64,000 nt of DNA from Syntrophales bacterium (GTDB taxonomy: Bacteria > Desulfobacterota > Syntrophia > Syntrophales > PHBD01): positions 1,888,001 through 1,952,000 of the forward strand of contig OY764159.1 in the NCBI GenBank assembly GCA_963668175.1. Reading direction: 5' to 3'. The notes under the pieces are model-generated. The model did not search any database and was not told where the DNA came from. It saw only the letters and a list, made by a program, of their open reading frames with translations. The position numbers and the translations under genes are program-made. Of this stretch, positions 54,358 to 59,703 are shown piece by piece (within the stretch, counting starts at the first letter, position 1; the number at the start of each line of letters is the position of its first letter).

Positions 54358-57156
54358 GTGAGCGGTTACGGGTCCGGGGAACGGACTCTGGTCCGGCGGA
54401 TGTATCATCCCCGTGTAGTAGGTTTGGGGCTTGGATTCTTCTGTGTCGCCTCGGTCTTCTACGAGCAGCCGACGCCGGTCTTATTGTGGGCCGCCCTCTT
54501 CGCCAACGGGTTCGTCTGGCCGCACCTGGCCTTCTACCTGGGAAAAACGAGCGCCAATCCCTACCTTGCCGAGAGGAGGAACGTCATGATCGATTCCTTT
54601 CTCGGCGCACTTTGGCTCCCCCTGATGTCTTTCAACATGCTCCCTTCGGCAACGCTCGTCTTTATGTTGAGTTTAGACAACATCGCCGTAGGCGGTTTCC
54701 GGCTGTTTATCAAGGGCATCCTGGCACAGGCGGCGGGGGCGCTGCTCGCGGTCCTTCTTTTCGGCTTCCATGTCCGCCCGGAATCGAATCTGCTGAACGT
54801 CCTGGCCTGCCTGCCGATGCTGGGCCTGTATCCCCTGCAGATCGGCTACGTCTCCCATCGCCTGGCGCAGAAGCTGAACCGGCAGAAGAAGGAACTGGAA
54901 GGTGTCAACGACGCGCTCCGGGAATCGAATACCAGGCTGACCGGGGCTTACGAAGATCTGCGGGAGGCCGATAGGCGCTACCGGCTCATATCGGAAAACG
55001 CGGGCGACGTCATCTGGCTCTGGGATCTGGCGAACAAGCGCTACGACTACGTGAGCCCTTCCGTTACGAAACTCAACGGTTTCACGGTGGAAGAAGTTAT
55101 GCGGCAGACCATGACCGATGCACTGCCGCCCGAGTCCCTCCGCCTTTTTATCGCGGAGATGGGCCGCCGCTTGCGGGCCCTCGAGGCGGGAGACGAGACC
55201 GCCCGCGCGCAGTCCTACGAGATGATGCATTATCGGAAAGACGGGACACTCGTGCCGACGGAAGTCATGACGACCGTCATCACCGATGCACAGGGCAAGC
55301 CGATACTCATTCAGGGCATGACCAGGGACATCAGCCGCCGCAAGCAGGTGGAGGCGCGGCTCCGGGAAAGCAATGCGCAGCTCGATCTGGCGCTGACGGC
55401 GGCGCGCATGGGGACCTGGTATTTCGATCTTGCGGAAGACAGGCGTTATCTCGACAGGAGGGCATGCGATCTCCTGGGCGTCGATCCGGAAATGTTCCAG
55501 GGGACGGTGGAGGAATTTCTGCAGGTACTGCACCCCGACGACCATAACAAGATCAGGGAGGCCATGGACCGGACCATCAAAGAAGACGTGCCTTACGAGC
55601 TTGAATACCGGATTGTCACGCCCGGCGGCATCCGCCACATCGCCGCCCGCGGCATGCCGGTCCGGGACGGTATGGGGCGGCCGGTACGGGTCAACGGCGT
55701 TCTCTGGGACGTCACGGAACGGAAGCAGACGGAAGACGCCCTCCTCGAGTCGGAAAGAAAGTTCCGGGACCTGTCCGAAAAGTCGAACGTCGGTATCTTC
55801 CTCATGCAGGACGGGTTCTTCAGATACGCAAATGCGGGATTCGCCCGGATCATCGGCTACGAAGTCGCGGATATATTAGACCACCTGACGCCGGCCGACG
55901 TGATGCACCCGGAGGACCTTCCCGTTCTGAACAAGCGCCTGAAAATGAGATTCGATGGGGAAACCATGTCGAACAGCTTTATATACAGAGCGCTCGCCAA
56001 GGGAGGCGAAGTCAGGTACGTCGAGACGTACGGATCGGTCACCTCTTTCCGGGGAAGGCCCGCCGTCATCGGCACCCTCCTCGACGTGACCGACCGCCGG
56101 CGGATGGAGGAGGCCCTCAGGGAAAGCGAAGAGAGATACCGCTCCATCTTCGAGCGTGCGACGGAAGGGATATACCAGAGTACGCCGTCAGGCCGCTTCA
56201 TCCAGGTCAATCCGGCCATGGCCAGGATCTGGGGGTACGGCTCGCCTGCCGAAATGGTCGCCGAAGCCACGGATATCGCGCAGCAGCACTATGTGGATCC
56301 CCGGGACCGGGAGCGGTTCAAAGCCGCGATCGCCGAGCACGGCAGCGTGGAAGGCTTCAAGGTCGAGATCCGCCGCCGGGACGGCGTAAGGATATGGGTA
56401 TCGCTCAACGCCAGGGCGGTTTACGACGATGCGGGCACTCTGGTCTTCTACGAGGGCACGAACGAGGACATCACCGAACAGAAGCTGATGGAGGATATGA
56501 TCAGGGAAAACGAGAGGCGCTACCGTCACCTGGTGGAGAACAGCAACGACATTATCTACACCACGGACCTCGCGGGACGGATTACCTACGTCAACCCCGC
56601 GACGGAACGGATAACGGGCTTCACCGTCTCCCAGTTGCTGGGCAAAAAGGGCCTGAGGATGATCCGGGAGGATTGCCGCGAAGAGGCGTATGTCTTTTAC
56701 AACCGGCAACTTGCGGAGGGTGTTCCCTTCACCTACAATGAATTGCCCGTCATTACCCGGGACGGGACGGAAAAATGGCTGGGACAGCAGGCCCAGATCA
56801 TTTTCGACGGGGAAAAGCCCGCCGGTTTTCAGATGACGGCGCGGGATATCACCGACCGCCTGAAAGCCGAGGACGAGCATCGCCAGCGGGAAAGACTGGG
56901 CGCGATTATCGAGATGGCCGGCGGGGTCTGCCACGAGATGAATCAGCCCCTCCAGATCATCTACGGGTTGTCGGACCTGATGAGGATGCGCACAGCCGAG
57001 GACCATCCTTTTCGCCGTCAGATCATGGCCATCAAAAAAGCCGCTGACAGGATGTCCTCTATTACGAAAAAGCTGACGGGGATTACGAAATACGAGACCA
57101 AGCCCTACGTCGGCAACGTCAGAATCGTCGACATCGACAGATCGTCGGTGAAATAA
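54358..57156 (+). CDS. MASE2 membrane sensor with five PAS/PAC modules and a terminal HisKA-like (DHp) domain, no HATPase
   Basis: AdrA-like MASE2 N-terminus; repeated PAC ends (RDIS, WDVT, LDVT, EDIT, RDIT); CHEMNQPLQ near the C-terminus. Confidence 0.85.
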   Translation: MSGYGSGERTLVRRMYHPRVVGLGLGFFCVASVFYEQPTPVLLWAALFANGFVWPHLAFYLGKTSANPYLAERRNVMIDSFLGALWLPLMSFNMLPSATLVFMLSLDNIAVGGFRLFIKGILAQAAGALLAVLLFGFHVRPESNLLNVLACLPMLGLYPLQIGYVSHRLAQKLNRQKKELEGVNDALRESNTRLTGAYEDLREADRRYRLISENAGDVIWLWDLANKRYDYVSPSVTKLNGFTVEEVMRQTMTDALPPESLRLFIAEMGRRLRALEAGDETARAQSYEMMHYRKDGTLVPTEVMTTVITDAQGKPILIQGMTRDISRRKQVEARLRESNAQLDLALTAARMGTWYFDLAEDRRYLDRRACDLLGVDPEMFQGTVEEFLQVLHPDDHNKIREAMDRTIKEDVPYELEYRIVTPGGIRHIAARGMPVRDGMGRPVRVNGVLWDVTERKQTEDALLESERKFRDLSEKSNVGIFLMQDGFFRYANAGFARIIGYEVADILDHLTPADVMHPEDLPVLNKRLKMRFDGETMSNSFIYRALAKGGEVRYVETYGSVTSFRGRPAVIGTLLDVTDRRRMEEALRESEERYRSIFERATEGIYQSTPSGRFIQVNPAMARIWGYGSPAEMVAEATDIAQQHYVDPRDRERFKAAIAEHGSVEGFKVEIRRRDGVRIWVSLNARAVYDDAGTLVFYEGTNEDITEQKLMEDMIRENERRYRHLVENSNDIIYTTDLAGRITYVNPATERITGFTVSQLLGKKGLRMIREDCREEAYVFYNRQLAEGVPFTYNELPVITRDGTEKWLGQQAQIIFDGEKPAGFQMTARDITDRLKAEDEHRQRERLGAIIEMAGGVCHEMNQPLQIIYGLSDLMRMRTAEDHPFRRQIMAIKKAADRMSSITKKLTGITKYETKPYVGNVRIVDIDRSSVK

Positions 57157-57401
57157 CCGGGAGAAAACGGATTTCTCTTCGCGAACACGGCCAATCGTTT
57201 ATCGTGTCGTCCTTCCCGCAAACATAACGGCTGCCCGTGTTTCCGGGCTGCGCCGCCGTGACCGGGATTTCTGTTGTGAATTTGCAGCCTTACTGCTTAT
57301 GCCGGCCTGTGTCGTGCGGGAAAAGGCGATTTCCGCAAGGTTTCTTACGGTCATAATGTGAACATTCCGCGAATGGGATTGCGTTTATCTGATCGCGTCG
57401 C

Positions 57402-57418
57402 CTGGCGCACAAATTGCA
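57402..57418 (+). promoter_or_regulatory. Sigma-54 promoter
   Basis: CTGGCGCACAAATTGCA (GG-N10-GC). Confidence 0.6.
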
Positions 57419-57471
57419 ATTCCGGCCGCCTCTTTTTTAGGCAATAAGCTAAAAAAACAGTCGTGGCGGCG

Positions 57472-57527
57472 TTTATCACAGTCATCAACAGCTTTATCAA
57501 CATAGATATCCACATCCCTGTGGATTG
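57472..57527. repeat. Phased DnaA-box-like repeat cluster
   Basis: TTTATCACA 57472, TCATCAACA 57482, TTATCAACA 57494, ATATCCACA 57506, inverted TGTGGATTG 57519. Confidence 0.55.
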
Positions 57528-57774
57528 AATAACCAAGTCCTTGAGCCGACGACAAAATCGTGGAAACAGAGGCGTGGCCTGCTTCTTTCCCGGCTTCCCG
57601 GAAGCGGCGTTTTGGGCCCGCCATCAGACAAATACCGATAGTCAACTGCCGTCCCCTCCTACGGAAGAAATATTTTTTTTCCCAGTTCAAATTCAGACGG
57701 AAGACGATTGTTAAAAAAAAGCCGGGAGATTAATCTATAATCGAAAGAAGAGGAAAGGAGGCAGCAGGAAGACG

Positions 57775-57927
57775 ATGACAGCAGAAATCATCGGCATCAG
57801 GACCGGCGGAAAAGTTGAGTTCAACCCTCAGGACCACATCCTGGGAAAACACACGGGCGGTCCCCGGCTGCTTCCCCGCGACAATGAAGGTAAACATCCG
57901 GACGGAACATTCATGAAGGCCTTTTAG
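57775..57927 (+). CDS. 50-aa small ORF
   Basis: Purine-rich SD region; MTAEIIGIRTGGKVEFNPQDHILGKHTGGPRLLPRDNEGKHPDGTFMKAF. Confidence 0.45.
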   Translation: MTAEIIGIRTGGKVEFNPQDHILGKHTGGPRLLPRDNEGKHPDGTFMKAF

Positions 57928-57942
57928 CGAGGAGCCGTTGTC

Positions 57943-58059
57943 ATGATAAAGGAACGTAAACCGGAAAGAAGAGAACGAGAAGGGAAATACCGGGCCTGCA
58001 AACGCGGCGGAATCTGGATAGACCCGATGAGCTTTCCCCACCTCGAAAAGATGAATTAA
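57943..58059 (+). CDS. 38-aa basic peptide with a WIDP motif
   Basis: SD GAGGAG; MIKERKPERREREGKYRACKRGGIWIDPMSFPHLEKMN. Confidence 0.55.
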   Translation: MIKERKPERREREGKYRACKRGGIWIDPMSFPHLEKMN

Positions 58060-58084
58060 CGAACGACAAGAAGGGAGAAGAGCG

Positions 58085-58183
58085 ATGAAAAAGAGAACCG
58101 TAAGGAAGATCGAAAAACCGATCGAAAAGAAAAGAATCAACAAGGGCTGGATCGATCCTACGTGCACGCCGATGGATCTGTAG
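58085..58183 (+). CDS. 32-aa basic peptide with a WIDP motif
   Basis: SD GGGAG; MKKRTVRKIEKPIEKKRINKGWIDPTCTPMDL. Confidence 0.55.
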   Translation: MKKRTVRKIEKPIEKKRINKGWIDPTCTPMDL

Positions 58184-58225
58184 GAGCCCAGAAGACTTAA
58201 CGGACACATCATTCAGCCAATGATG

Positions 58226-58268
58226 AAGGGGCGATCGGTAGCGATACTGAAAGCCCCTTTGTTATTTT
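58226..58268 (+). terminator. Intrinsic terminator with a GNRA loop
   Basis: AAGGGGC-GA-TCGGTA-GCGA-TACTGA-AA-GCCCCTT followed by TGTTATTTT. Confidence 0.7.
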
Positions 58269-58593
58269 AGATGGATTTGCCGGTTCGAACCGGCGCAGCA
58301 GAACATGTTACCCGAATATCCCCGGTGCCAGCAGCCGAAATTCCCGATACACGGGAATCGTTATTGATCGGCGGGGCGTCTTATTTATTCTCCATGATCA
58401 TCTCCGGAAGCGTCTGAGGCCGATTAGGGTTTTTCGCAGGTTTATTTCCGGAAACACCCCATAGAAAACGGCGATTCCCTATTTTACACTGTCTGCGGAA
58501 GGGCTGCCGCTTCCGTGTGCAGGCGTATCCTTGCGAAGAATCGGTTTTGACGGCAGCAGGTACGGCCATGGGCATCAATGGGAGGGGTAGACG

Positions 58594-59703
58594 ATGCATA
58601 GTCAAAAATACCTATTTGAGAGGATGCTGGCCCCTGCCGGCATCAGGATCAACGGCAACGGCCCGGCGGACATTCGGGTCAGGGACGAGAGGTTTTATGC
58701 GCGGTTGCTGCGCTACAAGAATCTGGGCCTCGGCGAATCTTACATGGAAGGGTGGTGGGACTGCCAGCGCCTGGACGAACTGATCTACAGAGTACTGACC
58801 GCAAGGATCGACAAAAAGATCGTAGGGGGCCTGAAGCTCCTTTTCCCGTCAATCGCCGCCGTCTTTCTCAACATGCAGTCGCGGATGCGGGCCTTCGATG
58901 TCGCCGAGCGGCACTACAATCTCGACAACGATCTTTTCATGTCCTTTCTCGATCCTTACAACCAATACAGTTGCGCCTACTTCGACGGCACCGGCGACCT
59001 GAACGAGGCCCAGGTAAAAAAGATGGACCTCATCTGCCGCAAACTCGACCTCAAGGCGAACGACCGCGTGCTCGACATCGGCTGCGGCTGGGGCGGACTG
59101 GCGAAATACATGGCCGAAAAGCGCGGATGCCGCGTGACGGCCGTCAATATATCGGACAGGCAGATCGAATACGCCCGCGAAACTTGCCGAGGGCTGCCCG
59201 TGGAGATCGTCAGGAAGGATTATCGCGATCTCGACGGCTGTTACGACAAGATCGTCTCCGTCGGCATGTTCGAGCACGTGGGGATGAAGAACTACAGGAC
59301 CTTCATGACGGCGGTGCACCGCTGCCTCAACGACGGCGGCATCTTCCTCCTTCACACGATCGGCAATAACGAATCGCGGATCAAGTGCGATCCCTGGATA
59401 CACAAGTATATCTTCCCGAACGGCATGCTGCCCAGTATCGCCCAGATCGGCAAGGCGGCCGAGGGGCTCTTCGTCACGGAAGACCTGCACAACCTGGGGC
59501 CGCACTATGCAAAGACGCTGATGGCCTGGCACGGGAATTTCCAGAAGGCGTGGCCGCAGCTGAAAAGCAAGCACAGCGAAACTTTCAAACGCATGTGGGA
59601 TTTCTACCTGCTGTCCTGCGCCGGGGCCTTCCGGGCGCGCGACATCCAGCTCTGGCAGTGGGTGCTGACCAGGTACGGCACGACCCAGCCCTGCTGCCGA
59701 TGA
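58594..59703 (+). CDS. cfa: Cyclopropane-fatty-acyl-phospholipid synthase
   Basis: GLGESYMEGWW, YSCAYF, VLDIGCGWG, SVGMFEHVG, YIFPNG. Confidence 0.95.
   Translation: MHSQKYLFERMLAPAGIRINGNGPADIRVRDERFYARLLRYKNLGLGESYMEGWWDCQRLDELIYRVLTARIDKKIVGGLKLLFPSIAAVFLNMQSRMRAFDVAERHYNLDNDLFMSFLDPYNQYSCAYFDGTGDLNEAQVKKMDLICRKLDLKANDRVLDIGCGWGGLAKYMAEKRGCRVTAVNISDRQIEYARETCRGLPVEIVRKDYRDLDGCYDKIVSVGMFEHVGMKNYRTFMTAVHRCLNDGGIFLLHTIGNNESRIKCDPWIHKYIFPNGMLPSIAQIGKAAEGLFVTEDLHNLGPHYAKTLMAWHGNFQKAWPQLKSKHSETFKRMWDFYLLSCAGAFRARDIQLWQWVLTRYGTTQPCCR

What the first reader, a model, noticed from the sequence alone, without database searches (positions are those of the whole stretch)
57402..58268. Unannotated sigma-54 unit encoding three peptides, two sharing W-I-D-P-x3-P
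Seen: in an apparent 1.4-kb intergenic gap there is a sigma-54 promoter, a leader of about 345 nt, three consecutive SD-led ORFs (50, 38 and 32 aa, separated by 15 and 25 nt) and a terminator. ORF2 and ORF3 both have a Lys/Arg/Glu-rich N-terminus, then GGIWIDPMSFP or KGWIDPTCTP and one Cys; the WIDP codons differ synonymously (TGG ATA GAC CCG vs TGG ATC GAT CCT), which suggests protein-level selection. Inference: a microprotein family with a docking motif, or RiPP-like precursors with a maturase elsewhere (none is adjacent). A GGA-rich Csr-type sRNA is an alternative reading.
Basis: partly seen in the sequence, partly recalled or inferred. Interest (0 to 1): 0.75.

Follow-up and report, generated by a model that had tools for sequence, protein, structure and literature searches.

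The report
Syntrophales microprotein operon tied to kinase
The three tiny genes are real and belong to an undescribed family of very basic, disordered mini-proteins found only in Syntrophales bacteria, where they share a promoter of their own and often sit beside one conserved sensor kinase and regulator pair; the proposed sigma-54 promoter looks like a chance match.

Summary
The three SD-led ORFs (57775-57927, 57943-58059, 58085-58183), their 15- and 25-nt spacers, the shared W-x-D-P-x3-P motif with synonymous codons, and the terminator (58219-58266) are all there. They are genes: the unit recurs at seven loci of this genome, and the motif peptides were found in 49 of 301 genomes sampled from the order (Syntrophales by record titles) and in 0 of 387 sampled elsewhere in the phylum. 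The gene order is fixed: E-F-N-P-Q peptide, then G-G-I-W peptide, then G-W peptide. The sense frame has the lowest pN/pS.

The sigma-54 box with its 345-nt leader is not supported. It is a 10-of-12 match, no more frequent in this genome than in shuffles, and it occurs at 1 of 35 family loci. What is conserved is an ~80-nt promoter-like region directly upstream of ORF1 (57678-57755).

No maturase is adjacent, the one nearby radical-SAM enzyme has its own precursor and does not co-occur with the family, and CsrA is absent from this genome. So neither the RiPP reading nor the Csr reading gains support.

New here: in four families, peptide operons lie next to an orthologous cytoplasmic 4xPAS HisKA_3 kinase and NarL-type regulator, and 48 of 49 peptide-bearing genomes carry that regulator. 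My best reading is a regulon of disordered docking-motif microproteins coupled to this two-component system. Their function is inferred, not shown.

The parts
57403..57418 (+). Sigma-54-like box (TGGCGC-N5-TTGCA). Probably not part of the unit.
   Evidence: Present in the sequence. It matches 10 of 12 consensus positions. Such sites are no more frequent in the genome (201) than in shuffled genomes (284-334). Found at 1 of 35 family loci.
57678..57755 (+). Family-specific promoter-like and 5' region shared by all peptide operons.
   Evidence: nhmmer with a model built from 26 loci hits G000 1945678-1945755 at E = 2.4e-11. All 7 hits with E < 0.01 in the genome lie upstream of small-peptide genes.
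57708..57713 (+). -35-like hexamer TTGTTA inside the conserved CGATTGTT box.
   Evidence: Conserved column block in alignment A5. The spacing to the -10-like hexamer was read from the sequence. No transcript data exist.
57731..57741 (+). -10-like region. TAATCT lies 17 nt after the -35-like hexamer and overlaps TATAAT.
   Evidence: Conserved TAnnnT block in A5. Inferred only: the sigma-70 scan did not call it under its stricter rule.
57742..57747 (+). Conserved CGAAAG. Presumed start of a short purine-rich 5' UTR that runs into the Shine-Dalgarno at 57757-57761.
   Evidence: Alignment A5. The transcription start is inferred, not measured.
57775..57927 (+). ORF1, 50 aa, E-F-N-P-Q class (the first gene of the operon type).
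   Evidence: Its profile finds 186 protein clusters, all unnamed or 'hypothetical protein'. pN/pS is 0.58 in the sense frame.
57943..58059 (+). ORF2, 38 aa, G-G-I-W-x-D-P-x3-P class.
   Evidence: pN/pS is 0.50. AlphaFold2 mean pLDDT is 68.5, with a short helix and a small hairpin around G-G.
58085..58183 (+). ORF3, 32 aa, G-W-x-D-P-x-x-T-P class.
   Evidence: pN/pS is 0.43. AlphaFold2 mean pLDDT is 57.7 with no secondary structure.
58219..58266 (+). Intrinsic terminator hairpin with a U-rich tail.
   Evidence: -27.1 kcal/mol, z = -5.86. Hairpin-plus-T-tract sequences also follow the paralogous operons.

Best explanation
The stretch 57678-58266 is a self-contained operon with a short 5' UTR. 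It encodes three translated, strongly basic, largely disordered microproteins. It is one of seven such operons in this genome and a member of a family restricted, as far as sampled, to Syntrophales.

Transcription most likely starts at a family-specific promoter directly upstream of ORF1 (conserved TTCAGAC / CGATTGTT / TAnnnT / CGAAAG blocks), not at the sigma-54-like box 372 nt upstream.

The family is functionally coupled to a conserved cytoplasmic two-component system: a 4xPAS-HisKA_3-HATPase kinase and a REC-GerE (NarL-type) regulator. I infer that this regulator drives the shared promoter, so that the dispersed copies, including the one in the window, form its regulon.

I also infer that the peptides act unmodified inside the cell. 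The invariant W-x-D-P-x3-P would be a short linear docking motif for a common partner, possibly the kinase's own PAS domains as feedback. The Lys-rich tail would contact a polyanion or an acidic surface.

Shown: coding, family, gene order, promoter conservation, gene linkage with the two-component system. Inferred: who regulates whom, and what the peptides bind.
For: Coding and family
- Paralogous units occur in the same genome.
- A profile of 13 peptides hits 49 of 301 genomes of the order, 31 of 201 among high-quality genomes and 14 of 72 genera, with up to 11 copies per genome.
- In the phylum sample 3 of 401 genomes hit, all three in the same order. That is 0 of 387 outside it.
- 30 hits (29 of them true peptides) turn up among 1.84 billion representative proteins.
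- W, D, P and P are invariant, while D is coded GAC 61 / GAT 35 and both Pro positions use all four codons.
- Sense-frame pN/pS is 0.58, 0.50 and 0.43. Other frames give 0.94-1.29, except the mirror frame at 0.58-0.66.
- Among 56 distinct clusters the class order E, then GGIW, then GW is kept throughout. The window's arrangement is the commonest, at 7 clusters.

Promoter
- 26 loci from several genera align over about 80 nt upstream of the first gene.
- The model built from them finds exactly the seven peptide loci in this genome at E < 0.01; the next hit is at E = 1.3.
- It also hits upstream of peptide genes in 8 of 8 loci that lie beside the two-component system.

Two-component link
- Locus G of this genome lies next to the regulator and kinase, and locus E lies divergent from a PAS-PAS-GerE regulator.
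- The regulator is 82% identical to the one directly upstream of peptides in another genus. The kinase is 81% identical to the gene after the peptides in a third genus.
- The same kinase-regulator cassette flanks peptide genes, divergently or in tandem, in loci from families f1, f11 and f14 and f16.
- From the coordinates listed, the regulator lies within about 3 kb of a peptide gene in 15 of 49 peptide-bearing genomes. This is a lower bound, because both lists were cut.
- 48 of 49 peptide-bearing genomes carry the regulator at E <= 1e-45, against 119 of 252 genomes without peptides.
- The genome has only 25 GerE-domain genes.

Disorder and charge
- AlphaFold2 mean pLDDT is 57.7 and 68.5.
- Median net charge is +4 to +5 and pI about 10.
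- The kinase N-terminus has no hydrophobic segment.
Against: - No RNA or ribosome data exist for this organism in the runs offered, so neither the transcription start nor translation is measured.
- The promoter hexamers are weak matches, and the sigma-70 scan did not call them.
- The window's own copy is not next to the two-component system. Its neighbours are a PAS/HisKA protein and cfa.
- The regulator is far more widespread (167 of 301 genomes) than the peptides (49 of 301), so it clearly has other roles.
- In family f19, 7 of 7 regulator loci fetched show no peptide within 1.5 kb.
- Related genomes are not independent, so the 48/49 versus 119/252 contrast overstates the evidence.
- No binding partner was tested, because the complex predictor never ran.
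- A locus-specific second promoter at the sigma-54-like box cannot be excluded.
- The pN/pS alignments were built on sense-frame translations, which favours that frame somewhat.
- The codon table was collected with the motif itself, so the invariance in it is circular. Only the codon variety counts.
Confidence: 0.55

Rival explanations
1. RiPP precursors. The conserved W-x-D-P-x(C)-x-P would be a core that a maturase encoded elsewhere modifies (for example a Trp or Cys cross-link made by a radical-SAM enzyme). The Lys-rich N-terminus would be the leader.
For: - The peptides are short, multi-copy and disordered, with a conserved Trp and a frequent Cys (64 of 96 genes).
- The genome does carry peptide-modifying radical-SAM enzymes. 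One is CbpB, at 695.8 bits, 4 kb from paralogous locus C.
- Dispersed precursors with a remote maturase are known from prochlorosins (recalled, not tested).
Against: - No maturase-type gene recurs next to about 35 loci.
- CbpB has its own adjacent CbpA precursor (55.6 bits against a cut-off of 35). It occurs in 23 of 301 genomes, and only 3 of those also have the peptides.
- The peptides match no precursor model in NCBIfam or Pfam.
- Cys is replaced by Ser, Ala, Leu or Tyr in 32 of 96 genes.
- The N-terminal part is the variable one and the C-terminal part the conserved one, which is unlike leader/core families.
Confidence: 0.12
2. A sigma-54 promoter at 57403-57418 would drive a transcript with a 345-nt leader that carries the three ORFs, either as the sole promoter or as a second, locus-specific one.
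For: - GG and GC have the correct spacing, and TTGCA matches the consensus.
- RpoN is present.
- The site follows two terminator-like hairpins of the upstream gene and points towards the operon.
Against: - It matches 10 of 12 positions. The genome has 201 such sites, against 284-334 in shuffled genomes.
- It is absent within 700 nt upstream of the other 34 family loci.
- The region 57380-57700 finds nothing in 40 relatives except one 45-nt element that also occurs elsewhere on its own.
- All the other operons manage with the proximal conserved region alone.
Confidence: 0.12
3. Exported signal or antimicrobial peptides. These would be ComX-like pheromones sensed by the neighbouring HisKA_3 kinase and NarL regulator, or leaderless cationic multi-peptide bacteriocins.
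For: - Small Trp-containing peptide genes lie next to a HisKA_3 kinase and a NarL-type regulator. This resembles comX-comP-comA (recalled).
- The ORF2 class has a G-G just before the conserved part.
- The peptides are cationic and come several to an operon.
Against: - The kinase has no membrane segment at its N-terminus and consists of PAS domains, so it cannot sense an outside peptide directly.
- No transporter, immunity gene or isoprenyl transferase recurs nearby.
- The peptides have no signal sequence and are very hydrophilic (GRAVY -1.07 to -1.40 for ORF3 and ORF2).
- AlphaFold2 shows no amphipathic helical bundle.
Confidence: 0.08
4. General polyanion-binding or stress microproteins (ribosome-, RNA-, nucleoid- or polyphosphate-associated) with no specific link to the two-component system. 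The motif would be a small structural cap rather than a docking site.
For: - High positive charge and disorder.
- Strong Shine-Dalgarno sequences and strong terminators suggest high expression.
- Under the same promoter, locus F encodes a Lys-rich peptide with a different C-terminus, and locus E carries a second Lys-rich peptide without the motif. The basic tail may therefore be the common working part.
Against: - Strict invariance of four motif residues over the whole order is more than a cap on a disordered tail would need.
- The repeated gene linkage with one kinase-regulator pair in four families goes unexplained.
Confidence: 0.18
5. Non-coding reading. The purine- and GGA-rich stretch would be a Csr-type protein-sponge RNA, and the ORFs would be incidental.
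For: Many GGA and AGGA motifs lie in 57745-58110.
Against: - No CsrA gene in a 100% complete genome, while the control genomes ring.
- No Rfam family even at E <= 10.
- No consensus structure in the conserved upstream part.
- Starts, stops and frames are conserved, and selection is frame-specific.
Confidence: 0.02

Closest known systems
ComQXPA quorum-sensing cassette of Bacillus (comX pre-peptide next to the HisKA_3 kinase ComP and the NarL-type regulator ComA). Recalled, not tested here.
   Same: Genes for small peptides with an essential Trp lie next to a HisKA_3-type kinase and a REC-GerE regulator. The peptide has no classical signal sequence.
   Different: - No ComQ-like isoprenyl transferase is nearby.
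- The kinase here is cytoplasmic, with four PAS domains and no membrane receptor part.
- The peptides are Lys-rich, come in three classes, and are multi-copy and dispersed.
- There is no sequence similarity.
DegQ and DegR, small proteins that modulate phosphotransfer in the cytoplasmic DegS (HisKA_3) / DegU (NarL-type) system of Bacillus subtilis. Recalled.
   Same: A cytoplasmic HisKA_3 kinase with a NarL-type regulator, together with proteins of 30-60 aa that would act inside the cell on or downstream of that system.
   Different: - No Pfam match to DegQ or any other family.
- The action on the kinase is only inferred here.
- The copy number is much higher, and a shared linear motif is present.
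Small connector or feedback proteins of two-component systems (MgrB-PhoQ, PmrD, SafA, Sda-KinA). Recalled.
   Same: Tiny proteins whose genes belong to the regulon of, or sit near, the system they modulate.
   Different: - MgrB and SafA are membrane proteins, and Sda is a folded helical hairpin. The peptides here are soluble, basic and predicted to be disordered.
- No homology to any of them.
CbpA/CbpB radical-SAM modified-peptide system (NCBIfam TIGR04164 / TIGR04163).
   Same: It is present in this genome 4 kb from paralogous locus C. The CbpA precursor also begins with a Lys-rich stretch.
   Different: - The W-x-D-P peptides do not match the CbpA model.
- CbpB occurs in 23 of 301 genomes, and only 3 of them overlap with the 49 peptide-bearing genomes.
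Dispersed multi-copy RiPP precursors (prochlorosin type). Recalled.
   Same: Many short paralogous precursor-like genes are scattered over the genome, away from any enzyme.
   Different: There the leader is conserved and the core hypervariable. Here the N-terminus varies and the C-terminal motif is invariant. No candidate enzyme was found.
CsrB/RsmZ-type GGA-rich sponge RNAs.
   Same: A GGA-rich sequence between a promoter and a terminator.
   Different: No CsrA in the genome, no Rfam match, and clear protein-level conservation.

Membership tests
Sigma-54-dependent promoter | GG at -24 and GC at -12 with exact spacing (TGGCAC-N5-TTGCW) | tested here: met
   TGGCGC-N5-TTGCA at 57403-57418.
Sigma-54-dependent promoter | Match better than chance in this genome | tested here: not met
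   The site scores 10 of 12. The genome has 201 such sites, against 284-334 in five shuffled genomes. In the window there are 2 matches against 0.87 expected, and 17 of 100 shuffles reach 2.
Sigma-54-dependent promoter | Conserved at homologous loci | tested here: not met
   Found at 1 of 35 family loci within 700 nt upstream. No DNA match to this part in 40 relatives.
Sigma-54-dependent promoter | RpoN encoded; enhancer-binding protein and upstream activator site | tested here: inconclusive
   RpoN DNA-binding domain found at 217.9 bits. Enhancer-binding protein and upstream site were not examined.
RiPP precursor peptide | Maturase or recognition protein encoded next to the precursor, or co-occurring with it | tested here: not met
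   No recurrent enzyme in the flanks of about 35 loci. CbpB overlaps in 3 of 49 genomes. A remote, unknown enzyme cannot be excluded.
RiPP precursor peptide | Match to a known precursor family | tested here: not met
   NCBIfam: 0 families for the three window peptides. The best hit for any of the six peptides scanned was 12.6 bits against a cut-off of 30. Pfam: nothing over cut-off.
RiPP precursor peptide | Post-translational modification of the product | not testable with these tools
   Needs mass spectrometry of the native peptides.
CsrB-type sponge RNA | CsrA/RsmA partner in the genome | tested here: not met
   PF02599 has 0 matches in G000 (100% complete). The control rings in 3 known genomes.
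CsrB-type sponge RNA | Covariance-model match or conserved hairpins | tested here: not met
   Rfam at E <= 10 gives only two chance-level hits elsewhere in the gap. RNAalifold predicts 0 pairs on the upstream alignment.
ComQXPA-like peptide signalling | Peptide gene adjacent to a HisKA_3 kinase and a NarL-type regulator | tested here: met
   Seen in four families, though not at the window's own copy.
ComQXPA-like peptide signalling | Membrane-bound receptor kinase and ComQ-type modifying enzyme | tested here: not met
   The kinase consists of four PAS domains plus HisKA_3 and HATPase, with a hydrophilic N-terminus. No prenyl transferase is in the cassettes. A genome-wide search for one was not run.
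Leaderless multi-peptide bacteriocins | Amphipathic or hydrophobic helical peptides with transporter and immunity genes alongside | tested here: not met
   GRAVY is -1.40 (ORF2) and -1.07 (ORF3). AlphaFold2 shows little or no helix. No ABC transporter recurs in the flanks.
Small modulators of two-component systems (DegQ/DegR, Sda, MgrB type) | Direct binding to the kinase or regulator, with an effect on phosphotransfer | not testable with these tools
   The complex predictor was never available. Needs biochemistry.
Small modulators of two-component systems (DegQ/DegR, Sda, MgrB type) | Sequence membership in a described family | tested here: not met
   No hit in Pfam, NCBIfam, PHROGs, PADLOC or PDB.

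The most novel reading that the evidence does not exclude
Syntrophales run an intracellular peptide circuit. A cytoplasmic four-PAS kinase and its NarL-type regulator would switch on a regulon made only of disordered Lys-rich microprotein operons (seven in this genome). The peptides would then dock through W-x-D-P-x3-P onto PAS-type sensors, including the kinase itself, to tune signalling across the organism's very large kinase set (82 HisKA genes here). A bolder variant is that the Lys-rich tails serve as sacrificial acceptors for the reactive acyl-CoA chemistry typical of these syntrophs.
Probability: 0.2. Interest if true: 0.85.

Novelty: new variant of a known kind. Interest (0 to 1): 0.66.

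Why it matters
Syntrophales are key partners in methanogenic breakdown of fatty acids and aromatic compounds, and they are hard to grow, so much of their regulation is unknown. This is an order-wide, multi-copy gene family that curated libraries do not cover and that public records name, where at all, only as 'hypothetical protein'. It has three peptide classes in a fixed order, a promoter found nowhere else in the genome, and a repeated physical link to one conserved two-component system.

If the peptides are outputs or feedback modulators of that system, they give a handle on a signalling pathway present in more than half of the sampled genomes of the order. They would also be a clean model for how short linear motifs work in bacterial microproteins.

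On the practical side, the work shows that a plausible-looking sigma-54 box can be a chance match, and that comparing paralogues finds the real control region.

Tried and rejected
- RNA evidence: no RNA holder listed. The look-up of sequencing runs returned 5 runs, none on record as RNA.
- Complex prediction of ORF1 + ORF2 + ORF3: never ran.
- ESM Atlas: no usable hit for ORF2, and only sub-0.8 leads for ORF1.
- PDB sequence search with the 59-peptide profile: 0 hits at E <= 10.
- PHROGs and PADLOC: nothing meaningful.
- Earlier findings of this scan: nothing near, nothing by sequence, and only unrelated Lys-rich microprotein notes by words.
- Literature: motif strings gave one irrelevant plant paper. 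Searches on Syntrophus/Syntrophales with small proteins, microproteins or sORFs, and on CbpB/TIGR04163, gave nothing relevant. Only search listings and abstract starts were seen.
- Antisense gene: the 160-aa ORF at 57730-58212 (-) and its 271-aa and 199-aa counterparts at the paralogues have no Pfam family. They are missing at other family loci, where no ORF of at least 90 aa overlaps the peptides in, for example, L021 and L022. They sit in frames with pN/pS of 0.58-1.24. I rejected them as a by-product of the purine-rich sense strand.
- RNA hairpin or operator from the inverted repeat CGATTGT / ACAATCG that brackets the promoter: 76.9% of cells paired against 70.8% in shuffles, with few compensatory changes. 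Too weak to claim.
- Histidine-kinase neighbourhood in general: 2 of 7 loci in this genome are directly flanked by a HisKA gene, out of 82 such genes. Suggestive only, and superseded by the specific link to one kinase-regulator pair.
- The search for related loci with the 59-peptide alignment failed for lack of a conserved stretch. The 13-peptide alignment worked.
- Viral contigs: 1 locus in the whole collection, so the family is not phage-borne.
Full report
**What is in the window.** Reading 56800-58900 and listing ORFs confirms three ATG-initiated ORFs on the + strand: 57775-57927 (50 aa), 57943-58059 (38 aa) and 58085-58183 (32 aa). Each follows a GGAG-type Shine-Dalgarno, and the spacers are 15 and 25 nt. 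Downstream, 58219-58266 folds into a strong hairpin followed by a U-rich tract (-27.1 kcal/mol, z = -5.86). The left neighbour (54358-57156) is a multi-PAS protein with a HisKA region. The right neighbour (58594-59703) is a cyclopropane-fatty-acid synthase at 560.6 bits.

**The ORFs are genes of a family.**
- A DNA search of the unit found a 69%-identical copy of all three ORFs elsewhere in the same genome, a copy of ORF2 + ORF3 at a third place, and partial matches in relatives.
- Translation shows the same peptides with the same starts, stops and order.
- A six-frame motif scan and later searches bring the number of such loci in this 4.57-Mb genome to seven.
- A profile of 13 peptides hits 49 of 301 genomes sampled from the order: 31 of 201 high-quality genomes and 14 of 72 genera, with up to 11 copies per genome. 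The spread by family is very uneven: 8/8, 15/18 and 13/22 in three families, against 0/38, 0/36 and 2/78 in three others.
- In a sample of the phylum, 3 of 401 genomes hit, all in the same order. That is 0 of 387 outside it.
- Record titles of 33 related loci name Syntrophaceae, Syntrophus, Syntrophales, Syntrophobacterales or 'Deltaproteobacteria' MAGs, with one weak hit in a MAG labelled Planctomycetia.
- Among 1.84 billion representative proteins only 30 reach E <= 0.001. One of these is a spurious repeat protein, and the longer ones are mis-called starts or a read-through of two peptides.
- The ORF1 class has 186 clusters. None has a Pfam domain, and the only names given are 'hypothetical protein'.
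- Pfam, NCBIfam, PHROGs, PADLOC, PDB and the ESM Atlas give nothing.

**Protein-level selection.**
- W, D, P and P are invariant in alignments of 13 and 59 peptides. E-F-N-P-Q is invariant in 24 ORF1-class peptides.
- In 96 distinct genes collected with the motif, Asp is GAC 61 / GAT 35 and both Pro positions use all four codons. The invariance in that set is circular; the codon spread is not.
- Pairwise pN/pS is lowest in the annotated frame for all three classes (0.58, 0.50, 0.43). The mirror frame gives 0.58-0.66 and the other four frames 0.94-1.29. One caveat: the alignments were made on sense translations.
- The long antisense ORF over the unit is a by-product of the purine-rich sense strand. 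It has no family, and other family loci have no such ORF.
- Among 56 distinct clusters the order E-F-N-P-Q class, then G-G-I-W class, then G-W class is kept. The window's three-gene arrangement is the commonest, at 7 clusters. Subsets of one or two genes are frequent, so the classes do not strictly need each other.

**The sigma-54 box and the leader.**
- The box is in the sequence, and RpoN exists.
- It matches 10 of 12 consensus positions. Such sites number 201 in the genome, against 284-334 in five block-shuffled genomes.
- None of the other 34 family loci has one within 700 nt upstream.
- The 57380-57700 stretch is not conserved in 40 relatives, apart from one short element discussed below.
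- Instead, about 80 nt directly upstream of the first gene align across 26 loci from several genera. The conserved blocks, in order, are TTCCCAT; ATTCAGAC; CCGATTGTT, which contains a -35-like TTGTTA; a TAnnnT 17 nt further on; and CGAAAGAAGG running into the Shine-Dalgarno.
- A model of this region finds, in the whole genome, exactly the seven peptide loci at E < 0.01 (window copy 57678-57755, E = 2.4e-11). The next hit is at E = 1.3.
- RNAalifold sees no structure there, and an inverted repeat bracketing the hexamers is only weakly supported.

I therefore place the start near 57742-57750, with a UTR of about 30 nt. This is inferred: no RNA run was on offer.

**RiPP and Csr readings.**
- Flanking genes of about 35 loci show no recurrent enzyme.
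- A radical-SAM/SPASM gene 4 kb from paralogous locus C is CbpB (695.8 bits), with its own CbpA precursor directly upstream (55.6 bits). CbpB occurs in 23 of 301 genomes, and only 3 of these are among the 49 with peptides.
- The conservation pattern (variable N-terminus, invariant C-terminal motif, Cys replaced in 32 of 96 genes) is unlike leader/core families.
- CsrA is absent from this complete genome, and Rfam finds nothing.

**A link to one two-component system.**
- Annotating the additional loci showed that locus G (an E-F-N-P-Q peptide alone) lies next to a REC-GerE regulator and a PAS-HisKA_3-HATPase kinase. Locus E lies divergent from a PAS-PAS-GerE regulator.
- The regulator is 82% identical to the one directly upstream of peptide genes in a second genus. 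The kinase is 81% identical to the gene after the peptides in a third genus.
- Fetching more regions showed the same cassette (a 744-755-aa kinase and a 212-214-aa regulator) beside peptide genes in families f1, f11 and f14. The arrangements are divergent, tandem and downstream. In two f16 genomes the arrangement is convergent.
- From the coordinates printed, regulator and peptide genes lie within about 3 kb in 15 of the 49 peptide-bearing genomes. This is a lower bound, since both lists were truncated.
- The family promoter model hits upstream of the peptide genes in 8 of 8 such loci.
- The regulator is found in 167 of 301 genomes: 48 of the 49 with peptides, against 119 of the 252 without. 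It therefore looks near-necessary but not sufficient. Related genomes inflate this contrast.
- In family f19, the 7 regulator loci fetched have no peptide within 1.5 kb.
- The kinase has no hydrophobic N-terminal segment, so it senses inside the cell.

**How it most likely works.** The peptides are small (medians 31-38 aa) and basic (median net charge +4 to +5, pI about 10). They are predicted to be mostly disordered. ORF3 has a mean pLDDT of 57.7 with no secondary structure. ORF2 has 68.5, with a short helix and a small hairpin around G-G next to the motif.

This fits peptides that work through a short linear motif plus an electrostatic tail. The shared, otherwise unique promoter and the gene linkage point to the NarL-type system as their regulator, or as their target, or both (feedback). 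The steps that remain inferred are which way the link runs, what the motif binds, and under what condition the regulon is on. The complex predictor that could have tested peptide-peptide contacts never became available.

**Comparison with known systems** (recalled unless a call is given). The gene arrangement resembles comX-comP-comA and the DegS-DegU system with DegQ and DegR. But there is no modifying enzyme, the kinase is soluble, and there is no sequence relationship. The family fails the tests for sigma-54 promoter, RiPP precursor, Csr RNA and leaderless bacteriocin listed in the membership table. Four literature searches found no description (listings only).

**Verdict.** The interpretation as a microprotein family with a shared motif stands. 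The novelty lies in an order-restricted, three-class, co-regulated microprotein regulon coupled to a conserved cytoplasmic two-component system.

Noticed in passing
window 57483-57541: A conserved ~45-60-nt element inside the supposed leader ends in a perfect 7-bp inverted repeat (ATCCACA ... TGTGGAT). It recurs at G000 about 948,011-948,053 (86% identity) and in a genome of another family (G027, 82%). At both of those places it lies in an intergenic region facing the end of a gene on the other strand. No Rfam family matches. It may be a small RNA, an operator or a terminator module of its own.
   Followed up: partly
window 54358-57156 (+): The upstream 932-aa protein has a membrane-like N-terminal part, five PAS S-box matches and a HisKA region (window about 56911-57078). 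It stops about 26 codons after the HisKA region, which leaves no room for an ATPase domain. It may be a kinase lacking its catalytic domain or a phosphotransfer or sensor protein.
   Followed up: partly
L014:854-2385 (G000:C1:3686853-3688385): A complete CbpA/CbpB cassette: a 37-aa precursor at 55.6 bits for TIGR04164, and a radical-SAM/SPASM enzyme at 695.8 bits for TIGR04163. CbpB is found in 23 of 301 genomes of the order. It is unrelated to the W-x-D-P family by distribution.
   Followed up: yes
G000:C1 about 2721000-2721860 (-) and 3822500-3823110 (-): Two further loci carry the family promoter. One encodes a 43-aa Lys-rich peptide with a different C-terminal motif, after what looks like a decayed E-F-N-P-Q gene. 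The other encodes a 30-aa W-x-D-P peptide, followed after a hairpin by a 36-aa Lys-rich peptide without the motif.
   Followed up: partly
L109:151-261 (-), L110:4083-4193 (+), L107:416-526 (-): In family f14, the peptide encoded right after the regulator carries both an E-F-N-P-K stretch and a W-x-D-P stretch in one 36-aa chain. In genus g7 the first peptide likewise has W-E-D-P-L-L-x-P. The ORF1 class and the W classes may therefore share an origin.
   Followed up: no
alignments A7 and A8; several loci: Many members of all three classes end in the same three residues, K-G-L (or K-G-F), at the very C-terminus. This may be a second shared motif. The window's own three peptides lack it.
   Followed up: no
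window 57730-58212 (-): A 160-aa ORF runs antisense across all three peptide genes, and similar ORFs of 271 and 199 aa occur at the paralogues. They translate to Phe/Leu-rich, membrane-like sequence. They are a mirror image of the Lys/Glu-rich sense codons, not a gene.
   Followed up: yes
window 57315-57337 and 57368-57383 (+): Two terminator-like hairpins with T-rich tails follow the upstream PAS/HisKA gene, just before the sigma-54-like box.
   Followed up: no
G000 whole genome: The genome encodes 82 HisKA-domain matches, many in proteins of 800-1500 aa with several PAS domains, and 25 GerE-domain genes. That is an unusually large cytoplasmic sensing repertoire.
   Followed up: no
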